Part shown: positions 1 to 35,028 of the stretch, one piece after another
Numbering within the stretch: position 1 is the first letter of the stretch
Layout of the letters: each line of letters starts with the position of its first letter
Assembly (NCBI GenBank): GCA_965226645.1
Contig: CBDDDL010000002.1
Span: 667,147 to 731,146 of the forward strand
Direction of reading: 5' to 3'
Length of the DNA stretch: 64,000 bases
From: Candidatus Poriferisodalis sp.
Lineage (GTDB): Bacteria; Actinomycetota; Acidimicrobiia; Acidimicrobiales; Poriferisodalaceae
Position numbers and translations under genes: made by a program
The notes under the pieces: generated by a model
The model's input: the letters and a program-made list of their open reading frames with translations, nothing else
Told to the model about the DNA's origin: nothing
The model's database searches: none

Positions 1-3000
1 CGAGCACCACGGTCTCGCCGTCGTCCTCCACTTCGTCAGCCGCCGCCGCGATCCTGAGACTGGTCGAGCCGGCACCACCCGGGAGCGTCAACTGATACGG
101 CGAAGACAACTCATTGCCGTTCGCGTCGGTCAACACGAAATCGTCGTCGAGGGCGGCGCTGCCCGACACGTTCACCGACAGGCTCTGCGCCTGAGCGAAC
201 GTGACCCCGCCGGTGCGAACCGTGACCGTCGCCGTGTCGCCCTCGACAACCTGGGCGGCGCCCGCGGACACGCTGAAGATCGCGACGTCGTTGTCTCGCA
301 CCGTGATTGTGGCGCTGTTGGGCGAGCCGGCCACATATCTCGCCGGGCTCGCGGTGTCGGCCCTCACCAGCGCCGTCACCGTGGCCGCATCCTCCACGAC
401 GGTGTCGTTGACGGTCGCGGCTCGCAGCTCAGCGGTGCCGTCACCCGCGGTGAACGTCACCGTCGACGGCGGCGCGCCGCTGAGGATCCCGCCGATCGCC
501 GTCACCTCGACACGCACCGACAGCGCCTGGTCCAACGTGGTCCCCAAGGTGGCGGTGCGCCTCAGCGTGAACACGGCGTCTTCGCCCTCTGACACGGCCC
601 CGACCGGTGTGATCGTGACCTCGGGCACGCCCCAGTCGCTCGCGGGGATGGTGACGGTGCGCGAACCGATCGAGGTGTTGGTCGACGCGAGCCTGGCGCT
701 CAATACAACGGTCTCAGCCAACTCGGCATCAGAGTCGTTCACCACACGCACAACGGCACTGACCTGCGTCGCCCCCGCCGCCAAGGTGACCGAGTACGGC
801 GCCGACAGCGTCCGGTTCTGGGAGTCTGAGAGCATGAAGTCGTCGGCGGCGTCGGCCGACCCGGCCACGGTGATGTCGATGGCCTGGTCCGCCGCGAAGG
901 TGACGCCGTTGGTGATGGCGAACGTCAGCTCAGTCTCGCCTCCCTCAGAGACCTCGCTGCTCGCGACGCTGAACCCGATCGCGGCGGTGTCGGAGTCGGT
1001 GATCGTGACCGTCGCCACAGCCGTCGAGCCCTCAGAGAACCCCGGCGCAAGCGCGCCCAAGCTGAGCTCGACCGTCTCGGGACCCTCCACCAACACATCG
1101 TCAGCAGCGTCGAACATAACCGTCTTGCGGGTCTCGCCAGCCGCGAAGCTGACCTCAGAAGCCACCGAGAACTCACCAGCCGACGCGCTGAGACCCGACG
1201 CGACGATCTGCACCTCGATCTCCACACCGCCGCCGTGGGCTCTGCTCAGCACCACCGGCACCTGCAACGTCGAGCCCTCACCCACGCTGTAAGAGGCCGC
1301 GCCGAACGACACCGACACCGGCGAACCGATCACCAGCGACGAAGGCACACCCGACAACGTCGAGCCGTCGGCCGCGCAAACCCCGCCAACATCGCACCCC
1401 CGACCAGCAACCACCGACACAATGATCGCAGCCGCACTCTCAGGAGCCAAAGACACCAAATACGCATTCGCCCGCTCGCCCGCCACCAGCAATGGCGCCA
1501 CCGCCGTCACCGACGCGCCCTGAACGCTCAACGACGGAGTCGAAACCCCAAAATCCGCCACAGGCCGATTGAACACCACCGCCACCTGCGCAACATCGCC
1601 CACACCCGAATGAAACACCGACGTATCACTGCCCGCCAACACCCACGCCTCCAACAGCTCAGGAGCCTCCGCCAACGCCTCCGGCCCCATGACGGCGCCG
1701 CGAAGGTCGCCGACACCGGCGCCAGAACCGCCCAGGCGTAGCCATTCCTCGCCGGTGTCGGGATCGGCCTGGGTCATGGTCTCGGATGGGGGATCATTCT
1801 GGGGATTCCGTCCACGGGAGTTTCCCCAGCTGATCAGCCAGTGGCCGTTGCTGAGGGACTCGATGTTCCCGCCGCGATAGCCGAACTCGCTTCTCGTTCC
1901 ATGAAGCGAATGGTCGCGCACGAACACCGCCTCGCCGTTGTCGAGGTCCAAGGCGTACTCGACGCCGCGGCTGAACTCATCGCTCTCTCGGAGGAGGTCG
2001 TGTCTGGTCCAGGGATCTATTGGGCATTGCGCACCGTTGTCGTAGAGGATCAGGTTGCCGCTGGGCAGCAGCGATGTTCCGTGCTGGCCACAGAACTGGC
2101 CCTCGGGATCGCCGGTGATTTCGAGCGGCGGCGGCCCGATGTCGCGCTCGGCCCACTCGGCGTCGCTGAGATTCGACGGCCCCACCCTCCACACCACATC
2201 ACCGGTCGCCACGTCGATGGACAGCACACGCGAACACCCCCGCATCGACGCGATAATGCGCCCGTCCACCATGTGGGTCGCGTTCAGGTGCGCGTAGTCG
2301 CCGTCACCGGGCGGGAAGAAATGCTGCACGCAGTCCTCAAGCGGCATGTGATCCCACGAGTTCCAATTGAACACCGCCACCCCCGAGGGGGTGACGATCT
2401 GGATGACCGAGTCCTCCACATACACATCGGTCCCGTAGGGCTGGCCGTTCTCATCGGTGAAGGTGAGATGGGACAGGTCGCGCTCGGTGTCCTGATAGGC
2501 CATCAACATGTAGTTCCCGTTCTCGAGCACCCGGAAGTCGTGGGAGTCCTGGCGCGTGAGGGGCGCCACCGTTCTCGCCACCGCGAGCTGGCGCAGGTTC
2601 TCGTCGAGGACGCGGCCGACGCCGCTGGTGTAGGAGTATCGGGGCTCGCCGTTGACGTCGGGATAGAACCGGAAATAGAACCGGCCTCTCTGGTTCACGC
2701 TGCGTTGGACGCGCGGCACCCCGTTGCTGTCCATGATCACCAAGCGGTCGCCAAACGGGAAAAGGATCAGTTCGTCGAGCACGCCCGTCTCGCCCAGAGG
2801 TTTGTCGACGGTGATCTCTGCGAAGTTGTCGGCGAGGCAGTGCACGACGTACTGCGTCTGCGCGCCCTCGGCGTCGGTGAGGGCGATGCGCACGACGCTG
2901 TTGCCGGTCACGGCCCGCGTGGCTGTCATCGAGGTGTTCGTGCCGGGGTTGGCGTGCTGGGTGCCGTCGATCGAGATCCGGCTCGATGCGTCGGCGGGGG

Positions 3001-6000
3001 TCATGGTCAGCGTCATCGTGTCGGTGTTGTTGCAGCCCACCGAGTAGTGCAGGGTCTGCTCATCGAATGCCGGGCGCATCCGCCGCCACGCGTCGCTGCT
3101 GGTGGTCGCATCGGAGTCGTTGGTGGTGATCGACAGATCGCTGAGCAGATCGGCTGCCACGACCTCGGGCGCGGTCGCCTGGGTCTGCGCGCCGCTGCCG
3201 TGGTTGTCGTTGTAGGTGACGCTGACCCTCAGGAAGCTGCCCGCGTCAGCCGCTGCCGGGGTGTAGCTCGACGAGTCCGCCCCCGCGATCGCGGCCCATT
3301 CGTTGTATCCGGAGCTGCGCTGCCACACCCACGTCGCCGATCCGGTCACCACATCGTCGGGGTCCTCCAGGGTGGCGGTGACCTCCACGCCGGTGCGAGG
3401 CCGCTTCGTGGACAGCGACACCGTGCCGTCCTCGTCCGCGTCGGTCACCGTCACCGTCACACTCAACGCAGAAGCAGCCATGGCCGACCCTGCCGAGGGC
3501 AGCAGCGTCACCGCATAGGCGTTGTTGTCGTCGCTGTCGACCGGCGCCTCGAAATCGGGCGGCTTCTTGACGATCATCGGCGTCACCGGGTCGAGGTCGA
3601 ACCGCAGCGCGCCTGATGGCTCGTCGATGCTGAAGTACGCGGCGTCGCTGCCGCCGAGCGTCCAGGAGATGCCGTCGCGGTCCTGGGGCGACGACGCCGC
3701 GAAGGTCGCCACCCGCGACCAGCTGTTCTCCGCGAACGACACCACTGAAGGCCCTTCGATCGCTACGAGCTCGATGACGTTGTCCAACGTCACCACCAGG
3801 TGCGCGGCAACGTCGTTGAGCCCGTCGCTCACCTGCACCGTCACCTCGTAGGTGCCGTCGCCGTCGGCGTCATCGGGAGCCTCGAAGTCCTTGGCCGCCG
3901 ACAACGCCAGCACCCCCGCGGTGCTCAGCGCGAACTTGTCGGCGTCGGCGCCACCGGCCGCGCCCTCGGGGATCGACCACACGAGTTGCGAGGCTGGGGT
4001 GTCGGGATCCGACGCCGCCAGCGTCGCCACCGCCGTAGTTGCCTCCGCCACATCGAAGGCGCCGTCGCTGTCGATGGTCGGCGGCAGGTCCAACGCGAGC
4101 TCTCGTGCCGCGGGCACCTCCGACAGCATGGTGCCGTCCGCGGTGCACGCGCCCCCCGACGCGCACCCGGCGTCAGCGACCAGGCTGAAGGTGATCGCGT
4201 CGGTTCCCGTCGGCGTCAATGTGAAAATGTAGGCGTTGGCTGCCTCGCCGGGCACCACATGTGCCCGCACCGACGCCACCGTCGCGCCGGTCACGCTCAC
4301 CGACGGCGAGTCAGCCGCCAAATCCGCCACCGGCCGGTTGAACGCCACCACCACCTGCGGCGAGTCCGACATGCCCGTGTAGGCCTCGTCGGCGAAGTCG
4401 CTCTCGGCGAAGACCGCCGACAGCGGAGCCGTCTCAGCGGGGAACTCGTCATAGCGCATCGGGTACGCGCGCGTCATAGCCCGCACACCCGCTGAGGTGG
4501 TGTAGCTGATGTGGAGCAGTTCCGTGTTGGTCACGGGGTCCCATTCGGTGACCGCCGGCAGGTCCATCGTGGTGCGGCCCCAGCTGATCAACCAGTTCCC
4601 GTTGCTGATGGGCGCGACCAGACCGGCGGAAACGGTGACGGCGTTGAACGAGTCGTTGTAGGAGTGGTGGCGGACGAAGACAGCCTCTCCGCTGTCCACG
4701 TCGAGGGCGTACTCCACCACCCGGGTGAACTCGTTGTTGGTCCGTGCGGTGTCGCCGGTGTCGGGGTCTTGCAGGCAGTGGACGCCGTTGTCGTAGATGA
4801 TGAGGTTGCCGTTTCCCAGGATCTTGGCCGAGTGCTGCCCGCAGAACTCGCCGTAGGGGTCGCCCACGATCTTGAGCGGCGGTTTTAGGCCCTTGGCGCG
4901 CCACTCGTCGTCGCTGAGGTTGCTGCGCCCGAGCCGCCAGATCACCTCGCCGGTCGAGCCGTCGATCATGACCACCGCGGCGCAGCCCCGGAACGAAACC
5001 AGCAGGTTCCCGTCGACGACCTCGATCGAGTTGAAGTGGGAGTACTCGCCCTCGGAGGCCGTGAAGCGGTGCTGGGTGCAGTCGACGAGCTCCATGTGGT
5101 CCTTGGTGTTCCAGGTGAACACCGTGGTCCCCGCCGGAGTGACTTCCCGGATGATCTCGTCGTTCACTGCCTCGTTGGTGCTGTAGGGATCGCCGTTGTC
5201 GTCGGTGAACGCGCTCAGGTCGCGGGTGGAGGGATCGTCGGTCACCATGACGATGTTGTCGTTGGCCTTGGCTGCGAAGTCGTGATTGTCGATCTCCTCG
5301 TCGCTGCCAGCCGAGCTCGGAGGGCCTATCGCCGGCCCCGCCTCCTCGAGGTTCTCGTCGAGCAGCTGCAGCTTGTCGGGGCCGGGGGTTCTCGCGTAGC
5401 CGTAGGCGTAGCTAGCGGCTTGCAGCGGCTTGATGTGCGCCACCCGGAAGTTCTCGATGCGCTGACGGAACCACGGAACGCCGTTGGTGTCCACGATCTG
5501 CAGCGGGGACCACTGGTAGGCGGCGCGCCGGTCCACTGCCTCCACCGCGCCGACGATCAGCCCTTCCCACGCGCCGGGCTGCTTGGTGACGGTGATCGTG
5601 GGGTAGTCGTGGTCGAGGCAGTGAACGGTGTAGGTCCGTGCCTCGCCATCCGCGTTGCTGAGGACGATCTCGATGTCGCTGGTGCCGTCGAGCCCGCTGA
5701 GCGGCACCTGAGCGTTGTCGTTGGAGACCTGGATTCCATCGACGGCGAGCCGGGTGCCGCTCGACTCGGTGGACATTGCCAGCGTCAAGGAGTCCACCGT
5801 CGCCGGGTCGTCGTCGGAGCAGCCGGCCGCGTAGTGCAGGGTGTCAGCGTCGAACGCGGGGTACATCGCCCGCCCGACATTGCCCGACATCGACAGCGCC
5901 GCCAGCGCCAGCGCCGGGGCCGCATCGTCATCGTCGGCGATGGCGATGACCGCCGAGCCGATGCTGGCGCCGCTGTGGGAGGCAATGACGACCACGGTCT

Positions 6001-6676
6001 CGGCGTCGTCGTCGACGGTGTCGTCGACTGCTGTGACAACACCGGCCGCCTCGCTCTGGCCCGCCGCGAGCCTCAGGCTGAACGGCTTGGTCACCAGCCT
6101 GGCGGCGGCGTCGGTGAAGACGAAGTCGGCGCCCGCCGCCGCGGTGCCGCCGAGGACGACGTCGATGTCCTGGGGCTTCGCGAAGGTGACGCCGTTGGTG
6201 ATCGTCACCGTCACGGCCGCGCTGTCGGCATCGGCCTCGCTGAGCCCCGAAGGCGACACCGAAAAGGCAAACTCCGCAGTGTCGTCGTCCTCCACGGTGA
6301 CCGTCGCCGACGACGAGCCCACCGTCACGGTGACCTCACTGTCGGACTCCACCACAGCGTCATCGACGGTCGGCAGTGTCAGCGTCGCGCTATTGGAGTC
6401 CGCCTCGAACGTGACCGATCTCGTAGCCGCTCCCCCCAGCATGGATCCCGTCTCGGTCACGCCCACATCCACCGTCGCCGCGGTGTCCGTCGCCCCGGTG
6501 CGCACCAGCACGAAGCGCGCGTCCGCGCCCTCAACGACCGTCGACGACGACGCCGTCACAGTGACACCGTCCTGGGCGGCCGCGGACCCGGCCAGGATCC
6601 CCAACGCCGCCACAGTCCCTAGGACGACTGCCAGCAGCGCGACAACGGTGACCCGCGCCCGGGAGCTTGCCGGCAT
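1..6676 (-). CDS. Giant secreted multidomain surface protein, partial; the 3' end and stop codon lie beyond the window start. Domains: signal peptide, two Calx-beta domains, cadherin-like repeats, two arylsulfotransferase (ASST)-like beta-propeller modules, then further Calx-beta domains.
   Basis: The minus-strand frame reads from ATG (revcomp of cat at 6674-6676) as MPASSRARVTVVALLAVVLGTVAALGILAGSAAAQDG..., a signal peptide with an AxA site. It stays open to position 1; no minus-strand ORF in this frame is listed in the track, consistent with no in-frame stop. Translating the 1-330 end gives TITVRDNDVAIFSVSAGAAQVVEGDTATVTVRTGGVTFAQAQSLSVNVSGSAALDDDFVLTDANGNELSSPYQLTLPGGAGSTSLRIAAAADEVEDDGETVVL, a canonical Calx-beta motif. 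Internal segments include WDHM..DC.QH.F....G.Y.H.N......G.L..S.RGC..V..ID..TG.V.WR.G and ..YDNG, which resemble ASST. Cadherin-type DFEAPDDADGDGTYEVTVQVSDG is also present. The long + strand ORFs here (201..1292, 1841..3616, 5036..6622) are R/H/G-rich antisense artefacts. Confidence 0.8.
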   Translation of the reverse strand, partial: MPASSRARVTVVALLAVVLGTVAALGILAGSAAAQDGVTVTASSSTVVEGADARFVLVRTGATDTAATVDVGVTETGSMLGGAATRSVTFEADSNSATLTLPTVDDAVVESDSEVTVTVGSSSATVTVEDDDTAEFAFSVSPSGLSEADADSAAVTVTITNGVTFAKPQDIDVVLGGTAAAGADFVFTDAAARLVTKPFSLRLAAGQSEAAGVVTAVDDTVDDDAETVVVIASHSGASIGSAVIAIADDDDAAPALALAALSMSGNVGRAMYPAFDADTLHYAAGCSDDDPATVDSLTLAMSTESSGTRLAVDGIQVSNDNAQVPLSGLDGTSDIEIVLSNADGEARTYTVHCLDHDYPTITVTKQPGAWEGLIVGAVEAVDRRAAYQWSPLQIVDTNGVPWFRQRIENFRVAHIKPLQAASYAYGYARTPGPDKLQLLDENLEEAGPAIGPPSSAGSDEEIDNHDFAAKANDNIVMVTDDPSTRDLSAFTDDNGDPYSTNEAVNDEIIREVTPAGTTVFTWNTKDHMELVDCTQHRFTASEGEYSHFNSIEVVDGNLLVSFRGCAAVVMIDGSTGEVIWRLGRSNLSDDEWRAKGLKPPLKIVGDPYGEFCGQHSAKILGNGNLIIYDNGVHCLQDPDTGDTARTNNEFTRVVEYALDVDSGEAVFVRHHSYNDSFNAVTVSAGLVAPISNGNWLISWGRTTMDLPAVTEWDPVTNTELLHISYTTSAGVRAMTRAYPMRYDEFPAETAPLSAVFAESDFADEAYTGMSDSPQVVVAFNRPVADLAADSPSVSVTGATVASVRAHVVPGEAANAYIFTLTPTGTDAITFSLVADAGCASGGACTADGTMLSEVPAARELALDLPPTIDSDGAFDVAEATTAVATLAASDPDTPASQLVWSIPEGAAGGADADKFALSTAGVLALSAAKDFEAPDDADGDGTYEVTVQVSDGLNDVAAHLVVTLDNVIELVAIEGPSVVSFAENSWSRVATFAASSPQDRDGISWTLGGSDAAYFSIDEPSGALRFDLDPVTPMIVKKPPDFEAPVDSDDNNAYAVTLLPSAGSAMAASALSVTVTVTDADEDGTVSLSTKRPRTGVEVTATLEDPDDVVTGSATWVWQRSSGYNEWAAIAGADSSSYTPAAADAGSFLRVSVTYNDNHGSGAQTQATAPEVVAADLLSDLSITTNDSDATTSSDAWRRMRPAFDEQTLHYSVGCNNTDTMTLTMTPADASSRISIDGTQHANPGTNTSMTATRAVTGNSVVRIALTDAEGAQTQYVVHCLADNFAEITVDKPLGETGVLDELILFPFGDRLVIMDSNGVPRVQRSVNQRGRFYFRFYPDVNGEPRYSYTSGVGRVLDENLRQLAVARTVAPLTRQDSHDFRVLENGNYMLMAYQDTERDLSHLTFTDENGQPYGTDVYVEDSVIQIVTPSGVAVFNWNSWDHMPLEDCVQHFFPPGDGDYAHLNATHMVDGRIIASMRGCSRVLSIDVATGDVVWRVGPSNLSDAEWAERDIGPPPLEITGDPEGQFCGQHGTSLLPSGNLILYDNGAQCPIDPWTRHDLLRESDEFSRGVEYALDLDNGEAVFVRDHSLHGTRSEFGYRGGNIESLSNGHWLISWGNSRGRNPQNDPPSETMTQADPDTGEEWLRLGGSGAGVGDLRGAVMGPEALAEAPELLEAWVLAGSDTSVFHSGVGDVAQVAVVFNRPVADFGVSTPSLSVQGASVTAVAPLLVAGERANAYLVSLAPESAAAIIVSVVAGRGCDVGGVCAADGSTLSGVPSSLVIGSPVSVSFGAASYSVGEGSTLQVPVVLSRAHGGGVEIEVQIVASGLSASAGEFSVASEVSFAAGETRKTVMFDAADDVLVEGPETVELSLGALAPGFSEGSTAVATVTITDSDTAAIGFSVASSEVSEGGETELTFAITNGVTFAADQAIDITVAGSADAADDFMLSDSQNRTLSAPYSVTLAAGATQVSAVVRVVNDSDAELAETVVLSARLASTNTSIGSRTVTIPASDWGVPEVTITPVGAVSEGEDAVFTLRRTATLGTTLDQALSVRVEVTAIGGILSGAPPSTVTFTAGDGTAELRAATVNDTVVEDAATVTALVRADTASPARYVAGSPNSATITVRDNDVAIFSVSAGAAQVVEGDTATVTVRTGGVTFAQAQSLSVNVSGSAALDDDFVLTDANGNELSSPYQLTLPGGAGSTSLRIAAAADEVEDDGETVVL

Positions 6677-7817: not shown

Positions 7818-9671
7818 CTACTCGTACACGTTGAAGGACCAGCTCACCGGTTCGACAGTGGCTGAGGATTGGTAAGTGGCTGTCCATCTTCCTGGAATGA
7901 GCGGGGTATCGGCGATGAGGAACACCGCATTGCTCCCTCGCAAGATGGAGCGTCCAGTTCCTCCGTAGACAGCGTCGGTCGTCGTATAGGTGTGCTCATC
8001 CACGCGGCACAGCGTGCCGTCGGCGGTTCGATGGTGTGAACCTCCAGGGCCGACAAGCTCGGCGACGGCCAGGGGGTCGGTATCAGTGGGAAGCATGATG
8101 ATCAGCGGCAGTCCCACAGCGCCAGCGCGGTATCCCTCGCACGACTCGAGCGGCGAGGGCAACTCGCCCCGGAAGCGCATGAGTGGAACCCAACTGCCGG
8201 GACCTGGAAACAGCACGATGTCGTCGTGGGTTGTGTGGCCAAGTCCGCGAATGACGTCCAATCCGGTGTTCAGTCCAACGCCGTCGACGCGCGCGAAAGC
8301 GACGCTCTCGAGCTGGGGGCGCAAGATACCAATGGCACGAAATGGGGCAGCCATCCATTGATCGATTGCCGCGGCATCGCTCGTCGCGACGCCCAAGTTG
8401 GATGATCGACCCGCGGCAGCGCCAGCGTCGCTGTAGTGGGGGCTTGCCGGATTCTCATAGTGCGCATTCGCGTACGTACCGATCCGAAGCGAGGGGTCGG
8501 TGAATCGAAGGTATTCGAGATGCTTCCTTATTCCCTCCGAACGATCGGGACGGTCCACAACTTCGGAGAGCCCCGATCCGGTTCGGTAAGCGTTGATACG
8601 GGCTAGCCACGCCGTCGGGAGCCGTTCAGGCACAACTTGATTGGCCTGCGCGTACAGCGCCGCCGAGGCAGCAGCGCCGATTCGGTCGGTGTCGGCAATC
8701 CGCACTACCGAAACTGGGTCGAGAAGTGCCGCTAGCTCCGTCTCAATACTGCCGGTCAATGTGGCGACGCTGCCGACCAACACCACATCAGTCGGGGCGA
8801 GACGGGTAACCGCATCGCTGCTGGAGGCTCCGAGCGTGTCTGTGTTGGAGAACAGCACGCTGCCGCCCAGCGCCGCGGCCAGCGGAGCAGCGATGCCCAC
8901 ATCCGCTGGCGACCAGCCGTTGGCGATCACCACTGGGCTGCCGGCGGGTGCGGCCGCCAACAACGCTGCCTTGGCAGCACTGTCAATCCGGTCGGCGCCC
9001 GCGAGCCGCTCGACAGGAACTCTGTCGAGGAGTTCGGCGAGCTGTGCCTCGATGTCCGTTGACAGAGCGGCGGTTCCGCCCACCAGGATGATCTTCGACG
9101 GCGCCAGCTGAGCCAACGCTGTGACCGTGGATTCACCGAGCTCGGGTTGAGACGAGAACAGCACGCTGCCGCTCAGCCCCGCGGCCAGTGGCGCTGCAGC
9201 GCCCACGTCAGCGGGCGACCAGCCGTTAGCGACCACCACCGCCCGACCCGGGGGAGCGGCTGGCCAGTAGAACGCCGCTGCTCTTGCCGCAGTATCGATC
9301 CGGTCGGCGCCGCTGAGGCGATCCACGCGCACACTCGGCAAGAGTTCGAACAGCTCGTCATCAATCGCAGCGGTCAGCGCCGCAGTGCCGCCCATAAGGA
9401 TGATCTTGGACGGCAAAAGCTGCTTCAGCGCATCCGCTGCCTCCGTGCCGAGTGCGTCCGCCGACGCATACAGCACGCGTCCGCCCAGTCGATTCGCCAA
9501 CGGCGCCGCAGCGCCCACATCCGCGGACGACCAGCCGTTTGCAATCACCACTACGCCGCCGCCCGACGTGTCGGTTTGCGCCGCCCCCAACGGCTGCACG
9601 GCCAGCGTCACGCCTAGCAACACCGCGAGACACACGAGGCCGAACAGCCGACGGAACCTTGTCACGGTCAT
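7818..9671 (-). CDS. Secreted protein with three tandem cell-wall-binding (CWB2-like) repeats and a ~260-aa C-terminal globular domain of unknown function
   Basis: Signal peptide MTVTRFRRLFGLVCLAVLLGVTLAVQPLGAAQT. Three ~100-aa repeats each with ..IANGWS.ADVGAAAPLA..LGG.VL...L.GGTAALS.....L..L..V.R..GADRID[TS]AA.. Coding GC3. Confidence 0.75.
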   Translation of the reverse strand: MTVTRFRRLFGLVCLAVLLGVTLAVQPLGAAQTDTSGGGVVVIANGWSSADVGAAAPLANRLGGRVLYASADALGTEAADALKQLLPSKIILMGGTAALTAAIDDELFELLPSVRVDRLSGADRIDTAARAAAFYWPAAPPGRAVVVANGWSPADVGAAAPLAAGLSGSVLFSSQPELGESTVTALAQLAPSKIILVGGTAALSTDIEAQLAELLDRVPVERLAGADRIDSAAKAALLAAAPAGSPVVIANGWSPADVGIAAPLAAALGGSVLFSNTDTLGASSSDAVTRLAPTDVVLVGSVATLTGSIETELAALLDPVSVVRIADTDRIGAAASAALYAQANQVVPERLPTAWLARINAYRTGSGLSEVVDRPDRSEGIRKHLEYLRFTDPSLRIGTYANAHYENPASPHYSDAGAAAGRSSNLGVATSDAAAIDQWMAAPFRAIGILRPQLESVAFARVDGVGLNTGLDVIRGLGHTTHDDIVLFPGPGSWVPLMRFRGELPSPLESCEGYRAGAVGLPLIIMLPTDTDPLAVAELVGPGGSHHRTADGTLCRVDEHTYTTTDAVYGGTGRSILRGSNAVFLIADTPLIPGRWTATYQSSATVEPVSWSFNVYE

Positions 9672-16215: not shown

Positions 16216-18288
16216 CTAGAACCGGCCGCTCGTGCTCAGGCGCCGCCGGTGCTCGAGGAAGTCGACCAGCACGTAGTTGCCCAGATCGTGCGGGCTCGTG
16301 AAGAACGCCCGGCCGCCGTTCATCTCGGTCATCTTCTCCACGAACGCCCGCAGGTAGCTGTTCGGGTCGAGCATGAACACGTTGATGCGGATGTCCTCGC
16401 GGGTGGCGCGGGCCACTTCCAACAGCGTCGCCTCGATGGTCTCGCGCACCGGCGGGTAGGCAAAGAACGGACGCCCGTCGCGCCCGAGGTGGGCGGTCGG
16501 CTCGCCGTCGGTGATCATGATGATCTGCTTCGAGCCGCTCTGGCGGGCCAGCAGGCGCCGAGCGATCATGAAGCCGTGCTGCATGTTGGTGCCGTAGGCG
16601 AAATCCCACGACACCTCCGGCAGCTGCGACGCCTTCAGCTCGTTGGCTGACTCGGCAAAGCCCACGATGCCGAGGTAGTCACGCGGGAACTGCGTTGAGA
16701 TCAACGAGTGCAGCGCCATCGTGACCTTCTTCGCGGGAAGAAAGTTGTCACGCATCGGCATCGACAGCGACAGGTCCAGCATCAGCACCGTCGAGGCCCG
16801 AGAAAGCAGCTCAGTCCGCTCGATCTCGAAGTCGTCGGGCGTCAGCCGCACCGGCGTGCCGGTCCCCTGGCGGGCAATGGCGTTGCGCACGGTGCGCTCG
16901 ATATTGAGATTGAAGGTGTCGCCGAATTCGTAGGGCTTGGTCTCGTAAGCCCGTTCGTGGCCGATGCCGGTCTTGTGCACCTGGTGACTGCCGACCTTGT
17001 CGTCCATGAGACGGTCGAACAGGTCGCCCAGAGCGTTCTGGCCGATGCGTCGCAGCGCCCGCGGCGTGAGCTCGAGCCTGCCTTCGGTGTGCTGGGCAAG
17101 CCCTGATTCCTCAAGCATCCGAGCCATCTCGCTGAGCTGCTCCAACGCCTCAGCGGACTCGTTGCCGAGCAGCTCACGCACCCGCTCCGGGTCCACCTCG
17201 GCCAGCGCGGAGGGGCTGACGGCACCCTGCAGCATCTCTGAGAGCGCATCGAGGTCGCCGAGTTGGCCCAGCACATCGGCGGCCTGGGACATCGACAACG
17301 GATCGTCGCCTCCGAACTGGTAGCCCCGCTCCCAACCCATGCCGGGGAATGCCTGCTGGAGGTTCTGGGCGAGTTGCTGGGCCTGCCACTGCAGATCCAT
17401 GTCGTCCATGAATTGCGCGGCCAGGTCGGCGAGCTGCTGGCGTTGGGCCGGCGTCATCGAGTTGAGCATCGAGGCCATGGCCGCCATGCGCTTGGCCATG
17501 ATCTCGAGCAGCTCGTCGAGCGTCTGGGGGTTCTCGGGGAAGAAATCGCCGTAGCGGTCCATGAAGCCCTCGAAGTCGGGCTCTTCGCCCCGGGCGCGCT
17601 GTTCGAGCATCTGGTTGAGCTCGGCCATCATGTCCTTGGTGCGGGCCAAGTCCTCGGGGCTCATGTTGCCCATCGCGCCCGTCATCTGGTCGAAGTAGCT
17701 CTGGGCGACCTCTTGTCGCAGCCGCTCCACCAGCTCGGCGAACTGTTCGCGGGCTTCGGGAGATTCGAAGTCGTAGCTCTGCAGGCCCCGCATCTTCCCG
17801 GCGAGGTCGGGCGGCAGCATGTCGAGTTGCAAGTTGCGCTCGGCGGCGCTGGACTGGGCGATCTCGCTGCGTCGCTCGTCGCCGCTGTCGGTGGCATCGT
17901 GCGCGAACTGTTCGAGTGCCTCGCGCTCGGTGTCGGTGATCTCGCCGAGCTCACGGGCGATGTCGTCGTAGACGCCGCCGAGATCGAATTGATCGAGCAT
18001 TTCCGAGCGGCGCTCGCGCAGCCGCTCGAGCATCTCGCGAAGCCCTTCGAGCCGGTTGCCGTCGGCGTCGGTGAAGCCCTGTTGCATCAGGCGCCGCAGC
18101 GCAGCATTCAGGTCGCCGTGATACAGCAGATCGTCGGTCAGTTCGGCGAAGAGGCTGTCCGCGTCGAAGTCGAAGCCGGTCTGGGTGCCGTCCCAAGCCG
18201 AATAGCGGAAGCGGGTGCCCTCGCGGCGGGCCCGACGCCAGCGAATCTTCATCGAACGCCCACTGTCCTTGCTCCGTCGACCGCGCAA
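16216..18288 (-). CDS. VWA-domain protein with a long acidic/coiled-coil N-terminal region (partner of the MoxR-like ATPase)
   Basis: C-terminal vWA with MIDAS (..VLMLDLSLSMPM.. ..IIMITDGEPTAH..). An alternative start is M13 (MKIRW..) at 18252. Confidence 0.8.
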   Translation of the reverse strand: MRGRRSKDSGRSMKIRWRRARREGTRFRYSAWDGTQTGFDFDADSLFAELTDDLLYHGDLNAALRRLMQQGFTDADGNRLEGLREMLERLRERRSEMLDQFDLGGVYDDIARELGEITDTEREALEQFAHDATDSGDERRSEIAQSSAAERNLQLDMLPPDLAGKMRGLQSYDFESPEAREQFAELVERLRQEVAQSYFDQMTGAMGNMSPEDLARTKDMMAELNQMLEQRARGEEPDFEGFMDRYGDFFPENPQTLDELLEIMAKRMAAMASMLNSMTPAQRQQLADLAAQFMDDMDLQWQAQQLAQNLQQAFPGMGWERGYQFGGDDPLSMSQAADVLGQLGDLDALSEMLQGAVSPSALAEVDPERVRELLGNESAEALEQLSEMARMLEESGLAQHTEGRLELTPRALRRIGQNALGDLFDRLMDDKVGSHQVHKTGIGHERAYETKPYEFGDTFNLNIERTVRNAIARQGTGTPVRLTPDDFEIERTELLSRASTVLMLDLSLSMPMRDNFLPAKKVTMALHSLISTQFPRDYLGIVGFAESANELKASQLPEVSWDFAYGTNMQHGFMIARRLLARQSGSKQIIMITDGEPTAHLGRDGRPFFAYPPVRETIEATLLEVARATREDIRINVFMLDPNSYLRAFVEKMTEMNGGRAFFTSPHDLGNYVLVDFLEHRRRLSTSGRF

Positions 18289-21197: not shown

Positions 21198-21387
21198 CGC
21201 CCTGACCAGCAACCCACGACGAATTGCGCAGAGCGGAAGGCGCGCAAGTACGGTTCGAGGCCGCGCGAACCGCTCTCTGCGGTCTCGCACCGAAACCACG
21301 TCGCATCCAGTTCGCTGACCGGGTCAGCCCGGCCGGCTGTGCCGCCACTGCACACTGTCCCCCGAACGTCACCCACAGGAGGAGCAC

Positions 21388-22218
21388 ATGGCGCCGACTG
21401 CCACGCAGCCTGCCGGTTCGGTTCCGGTGTTCAAGACCCGCCGTGCGCTGCCGTTCCCGTTGAACATCTACCAGTCATCTGTGGGTCGCAAGTGGGTGAT
21501 GGCGCTGACCGGCATCGGGCTGCTGGGCTTCGTCATCGTGCACATGATCGGCAACCTGCACATCTACGAGGGCCCCTCTCGGATGTACGAGTACGCCGAG
21601 ACGCTGCGCGAGCTCGGAGGCGGACTGGTGCCCCGCACGCTGCTGCTGTGGATCATGCGAGTCGGTCTTCTCGCCATGTTCTTGGTGCATCTGCATTCGG
21701 CGTACACGCTCAAGGAGCGAAGCCGCCTGGCCTCGGATCGGGCCAGCTTCGTGGGCGGCGCCAAGAAGTACGAATCCAAGCGCGACTACATCGCAGCCAA
21801 TTACGCCTCGCGCACGATGCGCTGGACGGGTCCGATCGTGGGCCTGTACGTGCTGTTCCACCTTGCCGACCTGACCTGGGGCTGGTGGCTGGGCGATGCC
21901 TATGTGCGGGGCAACCCGTACCACAACGTGGTCGAGTCACTGTCCTCCATACCGGTCGCGATCATCTACGTCGTGGCGAATGTGGCGCTGGCGGTGCACA
22001 TCTTCCACGGCACCTGGAGCATGTTTCAGAGCCTCGGTGTGAACAACCCTCGCTACAACGGCCTGCGCCGCAACTTGGCGACAGTGCTGGCCGGCGTAGT
22101 CCTGATCGGCAATCTGTCTTTCCCAGTGCTCGTGCAGGCCGGCCTCGTGAACGAGGACAACGGGAAATGCAGCAGCGTCGATCTCGAATGTCTGGCCGAA
22201 GAGGCGGAGGCTCACTGA
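21388..22218 (+). CDS. sdhC: Succinate dehydrogenase / fumarate reductase cytochrome b subunit (b558-type, single membrane anchor)
   Basis: AGGAGG Shine-Dalgarno. 5-TM pattern with conserved His residues. First gene of a C-A-B operon. Confidence 0.85.
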
Positions 22219-22219
22219 G

Positions 22220-24181
22220 ATGGCTTCTGAGGAGACCGCAGCAACCATGAACGGTGCATCTAACGGCGTGCTCGACTCCCGCGTACCGCCGGGACCGATG
22301 GCCGACAAGTGGACCGACCACAAGTTCTCGATGAAGTTGGTCAACCCGAACAACAAGCGTCGCTTCGAGATCATCGTGGTGGGCACCGGCCTGGCAGGCG
22401 CTTCCGCAGCGGCGTCGCTGTCCGAGCTGGGCTACCGGGTCAAGGCGTTCACGTTCCACGACTCGCCGCGCCGGGCGCACTCGATCGCAGCCCAGGGCGG
22501 CATCAATGCCGCGAAGAACTACACCAACGACGGCGACTCGGTGCACCGGCTCTTCTACGACACCGTCAAGGGCGGCGACTACCGCAGCCGCGAGGCCAAC
22601 GTGCACCGCCTCGCCGAGGTGTCGGCAAACATCATCGACCAGTGCGCGGCGCAGGGCGTGCCGTTTGCCCGCGAATACGGCGGCCTGCTCGACAACCGCT
22701 CCTTCGGCGGGGCGCAGGTCAGCCGGACGTTCTACGCCCGTGGCCAGACAGGTCAGCAGCTGCTGCTCGGCGCCTACCAGGCGCTCGCAAAGCAGGTTGC
22801 GGCCGGCGGAGTCGAGCTGCACACCCGCAGCGAGATGCTGGATGTGGTCACGAAGGACGGCAGGGCCTGCGGCATTGTCACTCGCGACCTCGTCTCGGGC
22901 GAGATCGCAGCGCACTCCGCGCATGCGGTGGTGCTGGCCACCGGCGGCTACGGCAACGTCTACTACCTGTCCACCAACGCCATGGCGTGCAATGTCACGG
23001 CGGCGTGGCGGGCACATCGGCGAGGGGCGTTCTTCGCCAACGCCTGCTACACGCAGATCCACCCCACGTGCATCCCGGCGAGCGACGAGTTCCAGTCGAA
23101 GCTCACGCTCATGTCCGAGTCGCTGCGCAACGATGGCCGGATCTGGGTGCCCGAGGCGATGGACGATGTCCGCTCACCCGACCAGATTCCCGAGAGCGAA
23201 CGCGACTACTACCTCGAGCGCAAGTATCCGGCGTTCGGCAACTTGGTGCCGCGTGACGTGGCCAGCCGCAACGCCAAGACGGTGGTGGACCAGGGCAAGG
23301 GCGTCGGGCCGCTGCGCAACGGCGTCTATCTGGACTTCTCCGAGGTGACCGCCCGCGACGGACAGGCGGCGGTGGCGGCGAAGTACGGGAATCTCTTCGA
23401 CATGTACGACCGCATCACGGGTGAGAACCCCTATGCGGTGCCGATGCGGATCTACCCGGCCATCCACTACACGATGGGCGGACTCTGGGTCGACTACCAC
23501 CTCATGACCACGGTTCCGGGCTGTTACTCGATCGGCGAAGCCAACTTCTCCGATCACGGCGCCAACCGGCTGGGTGCATCAGCGCTGATGCAGGGGCTCG
23601 CTGACGGCTACTTCGTGCTGCCGTACACGATCGGCGACGACCTCGCCGGCCGGCTGGGCGAGCCGGTGATGCCAGTGGACGATCCGGTCTTCACCGAGGC
23701 GGTGGCCGGCGTCGCCGACGCCACGCAGCGTTTCCTGTCGATCGGCGGGACCCGCTCGGTGGACTGGTTCCATCGGGAGCTCGGCCAGATCGTGTGGGAC
23801 TACATCGGCATGGAGCGCTCCCGCGAAGGCCTCGAGAAGGCGCTCTCGGAGATCCCAGCGCTCGAAGCCGAGTTCTGGGCGGACCTCCGGGTGCCCGGCT
23901 CGGGCGCAACGCTCAATTCGGGCCTGGAGAAGGCCGGCCGGGTGGCCGACTTCTTCGAACTCGCCAAGCTCATGGCCCGCGATGCCCTGCTGCGCGAGGA
24001 AAGCTGCGGCGGGCACTTCCGGGCTGAGCACCAGACACCCGACGGCGAGGCTCAGCGCGATGACGAGAACTTCGCGCACGTCGCCGCATGGGAATGGCAC
24101 AACGCCGACACCGTCCAGACCCGTCACACCGAGGAGTTGGAGTTCGAAGAGGTGGCACTGACACAGCGGAGCTACAAATGA
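22220..24181 (+). CDS. sdhA: Succinate dehydrogenase / fumarate reductase flavoprotein subunit
   Basis: FAD-binding ..[17 protein letters not shown].., ..[14 protein letters not shown].., ..[15 protein letters not shown].. Confidence 0.9.
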
Positions 24182-33591: not shown

Positions 33592-35028
33592 TCAGCGTGT
33601 GCGCGGCGGATGGCGACGCTGCAGAATTGCCCGGCAATGTCCTCGGTGCCTAGCTGCAAGCCCGCAGCGCTGGCCAGTCGAGCGCACCCGCAGTGGGCAT
33701 CGCTCCCACCGCGCCCCGAGATCGACGCTCTCGACGGCGCCCGAGAAGTCGTCGCCGTCATTGGTGGGCAGAAACGGATCTCCTGCGATCTGGTCGAGGA
33801 GTTGACGTGCGTTGTGCGGATCGCCCATTGTCGAGGACATGACGTCGTACATTTCGAAAATGCGGTCGGCGTCGTAGGCCCGCAGGCGCGGACCGACGCG
33901 GCGGCTCCGTGTAATGCCAGCTTCAGTCAGACGACGAAGCGCTTCTGCGCACCGCCGCGGCGAAAAACCGGATTCCGACGCGAGGTTCTCTGGCGTCAGC
34001 GAAGGTTGCGACGCCAGCAGGTTCACTGCAGCCAGAGCCACAGAGCGCCCGGTGCGCTGCCCGACACGCTCGCGCCAACGGTCCTGCAGGCGTGAAACGG
34101 CATCCGCATATAAGCTCGCCGCTTCGCAGGACTGACTCACCGCTGTGCTGACGACTTCGAGCAACGGGATCACGGCTGCGGATCTGTGCGCGTCATCGGG
34201 CGCTCCGACGTAGCTCTGATATGCAGCGAGCGATCGCAGGTAGGCATCACGGTTCTGCGACAGGGCCAAGCTGATGGGCGGCATGAACCCCTCCGAAACG
34301 CACCGATGCTTCAACGCGGCATACAGGAGCGTCCGGCCCGTACGGCCGTTGCCATCGCCGAATGGATGAATCGTCTCGAATTGAGCGTGGGCCACCACGG
34401 CTTGCAGAATTGGCGAGTGATCGCCAGCTCGCAGATATGCGACGAGATCCTCCATGAGCGGCGGGCACTCATCGGGCGGCGGCGGCACGAAGTCGCCATC
34501 GAGCGGATGCCAGTCATTGCCCCCGATCCAGTTCTGCGTCGTCTTCAAAACGCCGCCGAGTCCCGGATTCGGGGACGAGTTCATGAGCACGCGATGGGCA
34601 TCGCAGAGCAACTCGACAGTCAACGCCGCCGGCTGGGCGAGGATGCGCAGAGCTTCTGCGGTTGCTTCGATGTTGCCAATCGCCTCGCCGACATGGCCCC
34701 GACGATGAGGTGGGGAAGCAGACGCCTCGGCAATCAACGCGTGCACGACCCGCCGAGCTTGCGGCGTCACTCCCTCGATACGCGACGAGCCAAGCGACTC
34801 CGCCCAGAAGAACATGGCGACCGAAGCTGAATCTGGCGCAAGCACTGAAGCCGTCGCAACCAGTTGGCGCTCGGCATCAGCAACGAATGCCGCCACATCG
34901 GCTGGCAGCAGTGGATGCCAGCCGGTCAGACGGTGAGGGACATAGGCGAGAAATGTGCCCAGCCGCCGGTCGACAGCCCGTGGCGCCGCCGGATTTCCTG
35001 GCCAGGACTCAGTGCGAAGGAAGCCCAT
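33592..35028 (-). CDS. Fic-family protein (AMPylase/filamentation-induced by cAMP family)
   Basis: Canonical Fic motif HPFGDGNGRTGRTLL. 478 aa with N- and C-terminal extensions. Confidence 0.85.
   Translation of the reverse strand: MGFLRTESWPGNPAAPRAVDRRLGTFLAYVPHRLTGWHPLLPADVAAFVADAERQLVATASVLAPDSASVAMFFWAESLGSSRIEGVTPQARRVVHALIAEASASPPHRRGHVGEAIGNIEATAEALRILAQPAALTVELLCDAHRVLMNSSPNPGLGGVLKTTQNWIGGNDWHPLDGDFVPPPPDECPPLMEDLVAYLRAGDHSPILQAVVAHAQFETIHPFGDGNGRTGRTLLYAALKHRCVSEGFMPPISLALSQNRDAYLRSLAAYQSYVGAPDDAHRSAAVIPLLEVVSTAVSQSCEAASLYADAVSRLQDRWRERVGQRTGRSVALAAVNLLASQPSLTPENLASESGFSPRRCAEALRRLTEAGITRSRRVGPRLRAYDADRIFEMYDVMSSTMGDPHNARQLLDQIAGDPFLPTNDGDDFSGAVESVDLGARWERCPLRVRSTGQRCGLAARHRGHCRAILQRRHPPRTR

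What the first reader, a model, noticed from the sequence alone, without database searches (positions are those of the whole stretch)
1..6676. Giant secreted adhesin-like gene missed by the ORF track, with two arylsulfotransferase-like propellers inside a Calx-beta/cadherin scaffold
The largest coding feature of the window is not in the six-frame track because its stop codon lies beyond position 1. From ATG at 6676 the minus strand is one open frame of over 2,200 codons.

Reading it gives, in order:
- a signal peptide and two Calx-beta domains (..DDAETVVV.. pattern);
- a cadherin-like beta-sandwich (..MYPAFDADTLHYAAGC...TYTVHCL..);
- a propeller module with the ASST-family pattern (W..DH..L.DC.QH.F....G.Y.H.NS.....G.LL.S.RGC..V..ID..TG.V.WRLG ... 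YDNG);
- cadherin repeats (..DFEAPDDADGDGTYEVTVQVSDG..);
- a second cadherin-like plus ASST-like module;
- at least four more Calx-beta domains running off the window (..LTLPGGAGSTSLRIAAAADEVEDDGETVVL).

I do not recognise two catalytic-type ASST propellers embedded in a giant Calx-beta/cadherin surface protein as a described architecture. It could be a cell-surface sulfotransferase or sulfated-glycan-binding adhesin.
Basis: partly seen in the sequence, partly recalled or inferred. Interest (0 to 1): 0.7.

Follow-up and report, generated by a model that had tools for sequence, protein, structure and literature searches.

The report
Wall-anchored giant protein with two sulfotransferase modules
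A sponge-symbiont actinobacterium encodes a 3,181-residue cell-wall-anchored surface protein carrying two apparently active PAPS-independent aryl-sulfotransferase modules, one member of a large undescribed family that points to sulfate-transfer chemistry on symbiont cell surfaces.

Summary
The minus strand from ATG 6676 to position 1 is one open frame of 2,225 codons. A 99.9 %-identical independent assembly shows the complete gene encodes about 3,181 residues.

- Signal peptide and two Calx-beta domains.
- Cassette 1: Cadherin-like sandwich, ASST propeller, Ig-like domain.
- Two cadherin-like repeats and an A9-type Ig domain.
- Cassette 2, then four Calx-beta domains.
- Beyond the window: more cadherin repeats and three CWB2 cell-wall-binding repeats.

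Both propellers pass Pfam's ASST thresholds. Modelled module 1's best fold matches are the sulfotransferases Cpz4 and E. coli ASST, not generic propellers. Both modules keep the sulfo-histidine nucleophile and its His/Asn/Arg partners, which are conserved in 198-205 of 206 related modules.

The host is Candidatus Poriferisodalis, a sponge-symbiotic Acidimicrobiia genus. The three-domain cassette recurs in hundreds of giant, unnamed surface proteins from MAGs of many phyla, several of which carry sponge-symbiont taxon names. No paper in the searched library describes it.

Best reading: a displayed, PAPS-independent sulfotransferase on an adhesin-like stalk. Its donors and acceptors are unknown. 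I rate it a new variant of a known enzyme kind.

The parts
1..6676 (-). 5' 70 % of the giant gene: 2,225 of about 3,181 codons. The start is ATG 6676 and the stop lies beyond position 1.
   Evidence: The full length comes from P0001/L001.
6572..6676 (-). Sec-type signal peptide, aa 1-35. It has an n-region with two Arg, a 22-residue hydrophobic core and a probable AAA|QD cleavage site.
   Evidence: Read directly from the sequence. No signal-peptide predictor was available.
5927..6571 (-). Two N-terminal Calx-beta-superfamily sandwiches: A-type aa 36-135 and B-type aa 130-250.
   Evidence: Pfam Calx-beta is weak for the first (16.7 bits) and absent for the second. hhalign against a Calx-beta profile gives 99.8 % probability for both types.
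5612..5929 (-). Cadherin-like beta-sandwich 1 (PF12733), aa 250-355, the first domain of cassette 1. It has invariant Cys281 and Cys348.
   Evidence: 35.3 bits, cutoff 24.2. Invariant Cys columns.
4442..5614 (-). ASST-type beta-propeller 1, aa 355-745. Active-site equivalents are His465, His547, Asn549, Arg563 and the nucleophile His615. Conserved cysteines are Cys533, Cys565, Cys612 and Cys634.
   Evidence: Pfam. PDB profile alignment. AF2 model pLDDT 86, pTM 0.86. Foldseek. Residue mapping.
4832..4834 (-). Codon of His615, the equivalent of E. coli ASST His436 (the sulfo-histidine nucleophile), in module 1.
   Evidence: The column is His in 205 of 206 modules.
4067..4369 (-). Ig-like domain 1, aa 770-870, the third domain of cassette 1. 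It contains a conserved C-x5-C loop.
   Evidence: Self-similarity to aa 1694-1781 at E 3e-23. It follows the propeller in 158 of 160 testable relatives. Invariant Cys columns.
3392..4039 (-). Two cadherin-like repeats, aa 880-985 and 980-1095.
   Evidence: Pfam Cadherin scores 18.6 bits, below the cutoff. They are homologous to the C-terminal repeats at aa 2258-2456. The repeats at about aa 2540-2830 pass the cutoff.
3137..3409 (-). A9/SCAB-type Ig domain, aa 1090-1180.
   Evidence: SCAB-Ig scores 21.8 bits, below the cutoff. A second copy lies at aa 2454-2524.
2834..3103 (-). Cadherin-like beta-sandwich 2 (PF12733), aa 1192-1281, the first domain of cassette 2.
   Evidence: (25.2 bits, cutoff 24.2).
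1637..2809 (-). ASST-type beta-propeller 2, aa 1290-1680. Active-site equivalents are His1379, His1463, Asn1465, Arg1479 and the nucleophile His1532. It is 39 % identical to module 1.
2081..2083 (-). Codon of His1532, the nucleophile equivalent in module 2.
1334..1597 (-). Ig-like domain 2, aa 1694-1781, the third domain of cassette 2.
2..1324 (-). Four Calx-beta-superfamily domains: aa 1785-1900, 1894-2011, 2020-2132 and 2130-2225+. The last is cut by the window edge.
   Evidence: Pfam Calx-beta scores 35.6 bits for the first and 17.3 bits for the third. Internal repeats. hhalign.
7818..9671 (-). Upstream neighbour on the same strand: a 617-aa CWB2-repeat wall protein. It is context only, with the same anchor type as the giant protein's C-terminus.
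   Evidence: Pfam CW_binding_2 E 7e-21. PDB hits to C. difficile Cwp6, Cwp8 and SlpA.

Best explanation
The gene encodes a roughly 3,181-residue surface protein of a sponge-symbiotic Acidimicrobiia bacterium (Candidatus Poriferisodalis).

**Export and anchoring.** A Sec signal peptide exports it. Three C-terminal CWB2 repeats tie it non-covalently to the cell-wall polymer. A stalk of about 20 Calx-beta, cadherin and Ig-type sandwiches holds two rigid three-domain cassettes away from the wall. Each cassette is a Cadherin-like sandwich, an ASST propeller and an Ig-like domain.

**Proposed catalysis.** Each propeller is a PAPS-independent aryl-sulfotransferase-type enzyme working by a ping-pong mechanism. 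An extracellular aryl-sulfate donor sulfurylates the conserved histidine (His615 in module 1, His1532 in module 2). The His/Asn/Arg triad assists. The sulfuryl group then passes to a hydroxyl acceptor: a phenol, a tyrosine or a sugar.

**Likely role.** The protein probably edits or detoxifies sulfated or phenolic host compounds at the symbiont surface while the stalk mediates Ca2+-dependent adhesion.

**Shown versus inferred.** Shown here: the ORF, the architecture, ASST family and fold membership, the conserved active-site residues, the export and anchor signals, the taxon and the family distribution. Inferred: actual catalysis, the identity of donor and acceptor, and the role in symbiosis.
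For: **ORF.** It is intact in two assemblies.

**ASST membership.**
- Pfam ASST E is 7e-21 for module 1 and 2e-19 for module 2.
- A 22-module profile hits Cpz4 (9KF4) at E 4.5e-22 and E. coli ASST (3ELQ) at E 7.5e-10. That alignment places EcAST H356, N358, R374 and H436 on the conserved motifs YAHxN, RGC and FCGQH.
- The H436N mutant entry 4P04 confirms the nucleophile column.
- Both window modules keep all four residues. Across 206 modules they are present in 198-205.

**Fold.** The module 1 model has pLDDT 86. Its top Foldseek hits are Cpz4 (TM 0.70) and EcAST (TM 0.64), with a gap to generic propellers at about 0.4. The three-domain cassette model has pTM 0.85.

**Cassette.** The sandwich-propeller-Ig unit is conserved in 180 of 187 modules upstream and 158 of 160 downstream.

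**Extracellular hallmarks.** Eight conserved cysteines per cassette suggest an oxidising, extracellular setting. The C-terminal CWB2 repeats score E 3e-19.

**Taxon.** ThrRS from the window is 95 % identical to that of Ca. Poriferisodalis sp.. This family is sponge-symbiotic and enriched in cadherin and Calx-beta genes.

**Enzymology from the literature.** Known ASSTs use the sulfo-His ping-pong mechanism and accept phenols, Tyr-peptides and sugars. Cpz4 sulfates a sugar hydroxyl using an aryl-sulfate carrier.
Against: - No biochemical data exist for any member of this subfamily.
- No donor-making or partner genes lie nearby. There is no PAPS-dependent sulfotransferase, type III PKS or Dsb gene in the window or in the L001 flanks.
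- The EcAST Thr501 position is not conserved: Ala in module 1 and Gly in module 2.
- The His252 equivalent rests only on the Cpz4 alignment.
- Module 2 was not modelled.
- Sponge association of most relatives rests on MAG taxon names, not on sample metadata.
Confidence: 0.6

Rival explanations
1. The protein is a non-catalytic adhesin. The ASST propellers act as lectin-like modules that bind sulfated aromatics or sulfated glycans of the sponge matrix without turnover, and the protein is purely an attachment factor.
For: The scaffold is made of classic adhesion domains: cadherin, Calx-beta and Ig. Cadherin and Calx-beta genes are interpreted as attachment factors in sponge symbionts. No donor-supply genes lie nearby.
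Against: Binding modules derived from enzymes usually lose catalytic residues. Here the nucleophile His is kept in 205 of 206 modules and its partners in 198-204 of 206, across many phyla. Related scaffolds carry other genuine enzymes such as sulfatases, metallopeptidases and a subtilase, which suggests enzyme display.
Confidence: 0.15
2. The modules have the ASST fold and are catalytic, but perform different chemistry. Possibilities are net hydrolysis of aryl sulfates (sulfatase-like scavenging of sulfate or phenols from host metabolites) or transfer of another group.
For: Identity to characterised ASSTs is only 16-21 %. Thr501 of EcAST is not conserved. The subfamily has its own invariant residues of unknown role (Asp532, Asp629/Asn630, Arg652, Glu655/Tyr656) and its own cysteines. 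One relative, P0034, combines the cassette with a sulfatase domain.
Against: The four residues that hold and carry the sulfuryl group in EcAST are all retained. The closest solved structure, Cpz4, is equally divergent from EcAST yet is a genuine sulfotransferase.
Confidence: 0.2
3. The long ORF is an assembly chimera or a decaying pseudogene, so the two-propeller architecture is not expressed as one protein.
For: The gene is a mosaic. Residues 1-1049 resemble single-cassette P0005/P0006, and residues 866-2840 resemble single-cassette P0002. In the sister assembly an IS element sits inside the signal-peptide codons.
Against: Two independent assemblies agree at 99.9 % across the junction region, with no stop or frameshift. 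Other genomes hold proteins with two or three cassettes: 12 and 4 cases among the proteins retrieved. All catalytic and structural residues are intact.
Confidence: 0.03

Closest known systems
Cpz4, the PAPS-independent arylsulfate sulfotransferase of caprazamycin biosynthesis (Streptomyces; PDB 9KF4/9KF6)
   Same: It is the best sequence and fold match: profile E 4.5e-22, Foldseek TM 0.70. It shares the YxHxN, R and QH active-site motifs. It acts on a sugar hydroxyl using a small aryl-sulfate donor.
   Different: Cpz4 is a solved 472-residue chain encoded within an antibiotic biosynthesis pathway that includes a donor-making partner, Cpz8. The window modules are about 20 % identical to it. They carry four extra conserved cysteines, are flanked by fixed sandwich domains, occur twice in one 3,181-residue wall-anchored protein, and have no donor-making genes nearby.
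E. coli CFT073 arylsulfate sulfotransferase AssT (PDB 3ELQ; Pfam PF05935)
   Same: Both have a six-bladed propeller fold (TM 0.64). The sulfo-histidine nucleophile His436 and the His356/Asn358/Arg374 triad are conserved. Both are extracytoplasmic, and both have a beta-sandwich N-terminal to the propeller.
   Different: AssT is a soluble periplasmic homodimer of 64-kDa subunits. Identity is about 16 %. Thr501 is not conserved. Adding the Cadherin-like sandwich to the model raises the TM score only from 0.49 to 0.52, so equivalence of the N-terminal domains is not established.
'Eukaryotic-like' cadherin, Calx-beta and fn3 proteins enriched in sponge symbionts
   Same: Same host family (Poriferisodalaceae/TK06) and same scaffold domains. 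Same pattern of spread across unrelated symbiont phyla and lateral transfer.
   Different: Those studies count the domains and interpret them as adhesion factors. Neither of the two papers checked here mentions an ASST or any sulfotransferase payload (no literature hits).
Clostridioides difficile CWB2 cell-wall proteins (Cwp6, Cwp8, SlpA)
   Same: Both have three tandem CWB2 repeats as a wall anchor plus a variable functional region.
   Different: The anchor here is C-terminal in an actinobacterium, and the functional region is about 2,850 residues long. Close relatives replace CWB2 with SLH-like repeats.

Membership tests
PAPS-independent aryl sulfotransferase (ASST; Pfam PF05935/PF14269) | Match to the family HMM above the curated threshold | tested here: met
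   PF05935 scores 75.0 bits for module 1 and 70.5 bits for module 2, against a cutoff of 24.2. PF14269 scores 54.4 and 41.6 bits, against a cutoff of 27.
PAPS-independent aryl sulfotransferase (ASST) | Six-bladed beta-propeller fold closest to solved ASST structures | tested here: met
   The module 1 model has pLDDT 86 and about 25 strands. Its top hits are Cpz4 (TM 0.70) and EcAST (TM 0.64), and the next folds score about 0.4. Module 2 was not modelled; it is supported by sequence only.
PAPS-independent aryl sulfotransferase (ASST) | Catalytic histidine that is transiently sulfurylated (EcAST His436) | tested here: met
   His615 and His1532 lie in the FCGQH motif and align to His436. The H436N entry 4P04 marks the same column. 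It is conserved in 205 of 206 modules.
PAPS-independent aryl sulfotransferase (ASST) | Sulfuryl-coordinating His356, Asn358 and Arg374 | tested here: met
   The equivalents are His547/Asn549/Arg563 in module 1 and His1463/Asn1465/Arg1479 in module 2. They are conserved in 203, 204 and 198 of 206 modules.
PAPS-independent aryl sulfotransferase (ASST) | His252 equivalent | tested here: inconclusive
   The 3ELQ alignment starts at residue 353. The conserved HDF histidine (His465, His1379) aligns with a Cpz4 histidine only. It is conserved in 203 of 206 modules.
PAPS-independent aryl sulfotransferase (ASST) | Thr501 equivalent | tested here: not met
   The aligned column holds Ala in module 1 and Gly in module 2, and it varies across the family. 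Cpz4 has Gln there, so the residue is not universal among active ASSTs. The alignment in this region is of lower confidence.
PAPS-independent aryl sulfotransferase (ASST) | Sulfuryl transfer from aryl sulfates (pNPS, MUS) by a ping-pong mechanism | not testable with these tools
   This needs enzyme assays and mass spectrometry of the sulfo-enzyme.
PAPS-independent aryl sulfotransferase (ASST) | N-terminal beta-sandwich plus propeller, as in EcAST | tested here: inconclusive
   A Cadherin-like sandwich precedes 180 of 187 modules, and the cassette model has pTM 0.85. The TM score to EcAST rises only from 0.49 to 0.52 when the sandwich is included.
Calx-beta domain (PF03160) | HMM match or profile homology | tested here: met
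   One domain is above the cutoff (35.6 bits) and two are weak (16.7 and 17.3 bits). Both A-type and B-type sandwiches reach 99.8 % hhalign probability against the Calx-beta profile, while controls reach about 1 %.
Cadherin-like beta-sandwich (PF12733) | HMM match above threshold | tested here: met
   Scores are 35.3 and 25.2 bits against a cutoff of 24.2.
Cadherin repeat (PF00028) | HMM match above threshold | tested here: inconclusive
   The in-window repeats score 18.6 bits or nothing. They are homologous to the repeats at aa 2258-2456. The repeats at about aa 2540-2830 score 41.9 and 36.3 bits.
CWB2-anchored cell-wall protein | Tandem CW_binding_2 repeats | tested here: met
   PF04122 scores E 3e-19 in the last 310 residues of the full-length protein. 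Three repeat units are visible in the sequence. This region lies outside the window.

The most novel reading that the evidence does not exclude
The Cadherin-like/ASST/Ig cassette is a laterally shared 'symbiosis enzyme' of sponge (and coral) microbiomes. Symbionts from many phyla display it on giant surface stalks to run a PAPS-independent, extracellular sulfate-transfer economy in the host matrix. Donors would be host aryl sulfates. Acceptors would be brominated phenols, matrix or aggregation-factor glycans, or tyrosines. The result would be detoxification of host chemical defences or remodelling of the sulfated recognition molecules that sponges use for cell adhesion. This would give ASST enzymes, whose natural role is still unknown, their first ecological function.
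Probability: 0.3. Interest if true: 0.8.

Novelty: new variant of a known kind. Interest (0 to 1): 0.62.

Why it matters
A 2026 review states that the natural substrates and physiological role of bacterial PAPS-independent aryl sulfotransferases remain poorly understood. All characterised members are small soluble enzymes.

Here the same catalytic machinery is found in a fixed three-domain cassette, in one to three copies, on wall- or S-layer-anchored giant proteins. The carriers are uncultured bacteria, several with sponge-symbiont taxon names, spanning Actinomycetota, Chloroflexota, Acidobacteriota, Binatia, Proteobacteria, Spirochaetia and Latescibacterota.

If the modules are active, three things follow:
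- Sulfate-ester chemistry happens on symbiont surfaces inside the sponge. This would be a new class of host-interaction factor beyond the 'adhesion' reading of cadherin and Calx-beta genes.
- The family is a pool of disulfide-stabilised, extracellular, cofactor-independent sulfation biocatalysts.
- The hypothesis is directly testable with recombinant cassettes.

Tried and rejected
- **NCBIfam.** The scan of the whole fragment gave no hit.
- **Single-sequence PDB search.** It found only Cpz4. E. coli ASST appeared only with a 22-module profile.
- **Rfam and regulatory scans.** Rfam over the whole window found nothing. The promoter/terminator scan of the 1.1-kb upstream spacer also found nothing, so no regulatory element is proposed.
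- **Literature.** Searches for sponge symbiont plus arylsulfotransferase, PF05935/PF14269, 9KF4 and Poriferisodalis found no description of this architecture.
- **Operon partners.** I looked for sulfur-metabolism or donor-making partners in the window and in the L001 flanks. Only housekeeping and unrelated genes were found.
- **N-terminal domain equivalence.** I tested whether the Cadherin-like sandwich equals EcAST's N-terminal domain by modelling the whole cassette. The TM score rose only from 0.49 to 0.52, which is inconclusive.
- **Split-gene origin.** I asked whether the two cassettes are adjacent split genes in relatives. They are not; the single-cassette relatives sit at non-syntenic loci, so the window gene is a recombinational mosaic.
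- **Specificity classes.** Hierarchical clustering of 206 modules did not separate clean classes. Module 1 falls in a small clade and module 2 in the main one.
- **Other copies.** There are no further ASST modules elsewhere in the window.
Full report
**1. The observation**

Translating window 6676->1 on the minus strand gives 2,225 codons with no stop. The ORF lister omits it because it skips ORFs that run off an end. The next largest gene in the window is DnaE at 1,216 aa.

A database protein, P0001, is 100 % identical over 99 % of the fragment and is 3,169 aa long. Its contig (ENA ERZ28763718 ctg125601, 4.8 Mb, fetched as L001) matches the window at 99.9 % DNA identity on both sides of the gene start. 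The open frame is therefore reproduced in an independent assembly. The complete protein has about 3,181 residues in window numbering.

L001 differs by a 2,032-bp IS element with a 6-bp overlap, inserted at window 6618-6623. That position lies inside codons 18-20 of the signal peptide. The window carries the uninterrupted allele.

**2. Anatomy**

The N-terminus has a Sec-type signal peptide: two Arg, a 22-residue hydrophobic core and an AAA|QD site. This is read directly from the sequence.

Pfam and internal-repeat analysis give the following order.

| Residues | Domain |
|---|---|
| 36-135, 130-250 | Two Calx-beta-type sandwiches |
| 250-355 | Cadherin-like sandwich (PF12733) |
| 355-745 | ASST propeller 1 |
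| 770-870 | Ig-like domain |
| 880-1095 | Two cadherin-like repeats |
| 1090-1180 | A9/SCAB-type Ig domain |
| 1192-1281 | Cadherin-like sandwich (PF12733) |
| 1290-1680 | ASST propeller 2 |
| 1694-1781 | Ig-like domain |
| 1785-2243 | Four Calx-beta-type sandwiches |
| beyond the window | Four to five cadherin-type repeats, a second A9 Ig, a Gly/Thr linker, three CWB2 repeats |

Only one Calx-beta domain passes Pfam's cutoff. Profile-profile comparison in the sandbox puts both other sandwich types in the Calx-beta superfamily at 99.8 % probability, while four unrelated domains of the same protein score about 1 %. One caveat applies: the iterated profiles may share members.

It lacks the two post-propeller Ig domains, the A9 Ig domain and the anchor.

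**3. Are the propellers ASST-like?**

Yes. PF05935 scores 75 and 70 bits against a cutoff of 24, and PF14269 also passes. A profile of 22 modules hits Cpz4 (9KF4) at E 4.5e-22 and E. coli ASST (3ELQ) at E 7.5e-10.

An AlphaFold model of module 1 has pLDDT 86 and pTM 0.86. Its best Foldseek matches are Cpz4 (TM 0.70), then eleven E. coli ASST chains (TM 0.64). NHL and WD40 propellers follow only at about 0.4. Module 2 was not modelled and rests on sequence evidence.

**4. Active site**

A 2026 review lists the E. coli active site as His436 (transiently sulfurylated), His252, His356, Asn358, Arg374 and Thr501. The profile alignment maps these as follows.

| E. coli residue | Motif | Module 1 | Module 2 |
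|---|---|---|---|
| His356 / Asn358 | YAHxN | His547 / Asn549 | His1463 / Asn1465 |
| Arg374 | RGC | Arg563 | Arg1479 |
| His436 | FCGQH | His615 | His1532 |

The H436N mutant entry 4P04 marks the nucleophile column.

In 206 modules from 203 related proteins plus the window, these residues are present in 203, 204, 198 and 205 cases. A conserved HDF histidine (203 of 206) probably corresponds to His252, but this rests on the Cpz4 alignment only. The Thr501 column is variable.

Four cysteines in the propeller are invariant or nearly so: 206, 206, 194 and 193 of 206. Two more are conserved in each flanking sandwich. This suggests four disulfides per cassette, as expected for an extracellular enzyme. 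That is an inference, because no coordinates were available.

Such near-invariant retention of catalytic residues argues for catalysis rather than mere binding.

**5. The cassette and the family**

The propeller almost never occurs alone. A Cadherin-like sandwich ends within 60 residues of its start in 180 of 187 modules. The Ig-like domain follows in 158 of 160 testable cases. The three-domain model has pTM 0.85, which indicates a fixed arrangement. Whether the sandwich corresponds to the N-terminal sandwich of E. coli ASST is unresolved.

Family size and spread:
- An exhaustive profile search finds 857 clusters (50 % identity) at E <= 1e-30. Most of the top hits are 1,000-4,000 aa long.
- Proteins with two or three cassettes exist: 12 and 4 among those retrieved.
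- Related scaffolds carry other payloads, namely sulfatase, reprolysin-type metallopeptidases, subtilase and glucose/sorbosone dehydrogenase, sometimes together with the ASST cassette. The stalk therefore looks like a general display platform.

The window gene is a mosaic. Residues 1-1049 are 81-84 % identical to single-cassette proteins P0005/P0006. Residues 866-2840 are 78 % identical to single-cassette P0002. Both relatives end in SLH-like repeats and sit at non-syntenic loci. The two window modules are only 39 % identical, so the pair did not arise by a recent tandem duplication.

**6. Organism and habitat**

The window's ThrRS is 95 % identical to that of 'Candidatus Poriferisodalis sp.'. 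This genus belongs to the Acidimicrobiia. Its family is sponge-symbiotic and significantly enriched in cadherin, Calx-beta, fn3 and LRR genes relative to free-living relatives.

A scan of species-representative genomes found at least 468 stretches encoding the module. The 79 best come from MAGs of these groups:
- Dehalococcoidia/Tepidiformaceae
- Acidobacteriota
- Binatia
- Acidimicrobiia (Poriferisodalis, Spongiisociaceae, Aldehydirespiratoraceae)
- several gammaproteobacterial Candidatus lineages
- Alphaproteobacteria
- Spirochaetia
- Latescibacterota
- Ca. Porisulfidus

Several of these names are sponge-symbiont taxa. The isolate labels resemble sponge and coral MAG sets that I recall, but I could not read sample metadata. 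The sponge link for most relatives is therefore suggestive, not proven.

Cadherin-domain genes are known to be enriched and laterally transferred among sponge symbionts. Neither of the two papers I checked mentions an ASST or sulfotransferase payload. No paper in the searched library links ASST domains to sponge symbionts.

**7. Mechanism proposed**

Steps 1 and 2 follow from the signal peptide and the CWB2 repeats, which match C. difficile Cwp and SlpA anchors. Steps 3 to 5 are inferred from the known ping-pong mechanism and the substrate range of ASSTs. Those enzymes accept phenols, Tyr-peptides and sugars, and Cpz4 uses a dedicated aryl-sulfate carrier.

1. The protein is exported by Sec.
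2. It attaches non-covalently to the wall polymer through three CWB2 repeats.
3. A Ca2+-stiffened stalk projects the two cassettes.
4. An extracellular aryl sulfate sulfurylates His615 or His1532.
5. The sulfuryl group passes to a hydroxyl acceptor.

No donor-making or Dsb genes lie nearby, so donors would have to come from the host milieu.

**8. Rivals**

- A lectin-like, non-catalytic adhesin. This is disfavoured by the conservation of catalytic residues.
- An ASST-fold enzyme with other chemistry, such as net hydrolysis. This remains open.
- A chimera or pseudogene. This is disfavoured by the two concordant assemblies.

**9. Verdict**

The enzyme kind is known. Embedding it as a fixed cassette, singly or in multiples, in giant wall-anchored surface proteins found across many MAG phyla, several with sponge-symbiont names, appears undescribed. 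I rate it a new variant of a known kind, of above-average interest, with function still to be shown experimentally.

Noticed in passing
window 6618-6623; L001 7986-10017: The 99.9 %-identical sister assembly carries a 2,032-bp IS element (DDE_Tnp_1/DUF772 ORFs, 6-bp overlap) inserted inside the signal-peptide codons of the giant gene. This replaces the N-terminus with MKNTSHL... The window allele is intact. It suggests ongoing inactivation or variation of this surface protein within the population.
   Followed up: partly
window 7818-9671 (-): A 617-aa protein with CWB2 repeats resembling C. difficile Cwp6, Cwp8 and SlpA lies 1.1 kb upstream on the same strand. About 300 C-terminal residues have no family match. 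It may be another wall or S-layer component.
   Followed up: partly
window 51275-53200 (+), with 53277-53951 (+): A 641-aa 'animal haem peroxidase' (PF03098, E 1e-154), a eukaryote-like enzyme, is immediately followed by a MIP/aquaporin gene. A link to the host's halogenated or phenolic chemistry would be speculation; this was not examined.
   Followed up: no
window 1-6676 versus P0002, P0005, P0006 (L081, L082): The giant gene is a mosaic of two single-cassette genes found separately, at non-syntenic loci, in related genomes. Those relatives end in SLH-like repeats instead of CWB2, so both anchor and cassette shuffling occur within the family.
   Followed up: yes
relatives listed (e.g. P0032, P0034, P0036, P0038, P0056, P0059, P0089): The same Calx-beta/cadherin/fn3 giant scaffolds carry other catalytic payloads: sulfatase, reprolysin-like metallopeptidases, subtilase, glucose/sorbosone dehydrogenase and cytochrome c peroxidase. 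Some carry these together with the ASST cassette.
   Followed up: partly
window 44227-47880 (+), 55145-56359 (-), 33592-35028 (-): A McrB-like AAA_5 ATPase plus McrC restriction pair, an IS110-family transposase and a Fic-domain protein lie in the same window among housekeeping genes (DnaE, ThrRS, HemB, SdhA/B-like).
   Followed up: no
window 16216-18288 (-), 48169-49668 (-), 56920-57936 (+), 21339-22250 (+): Four long ORFs (690, 499, 338 and 303 aa) have no Pfam match at E <= 1e-5. They could be real orphan genes or high-GC shadow ORFs.
   Followed up: no
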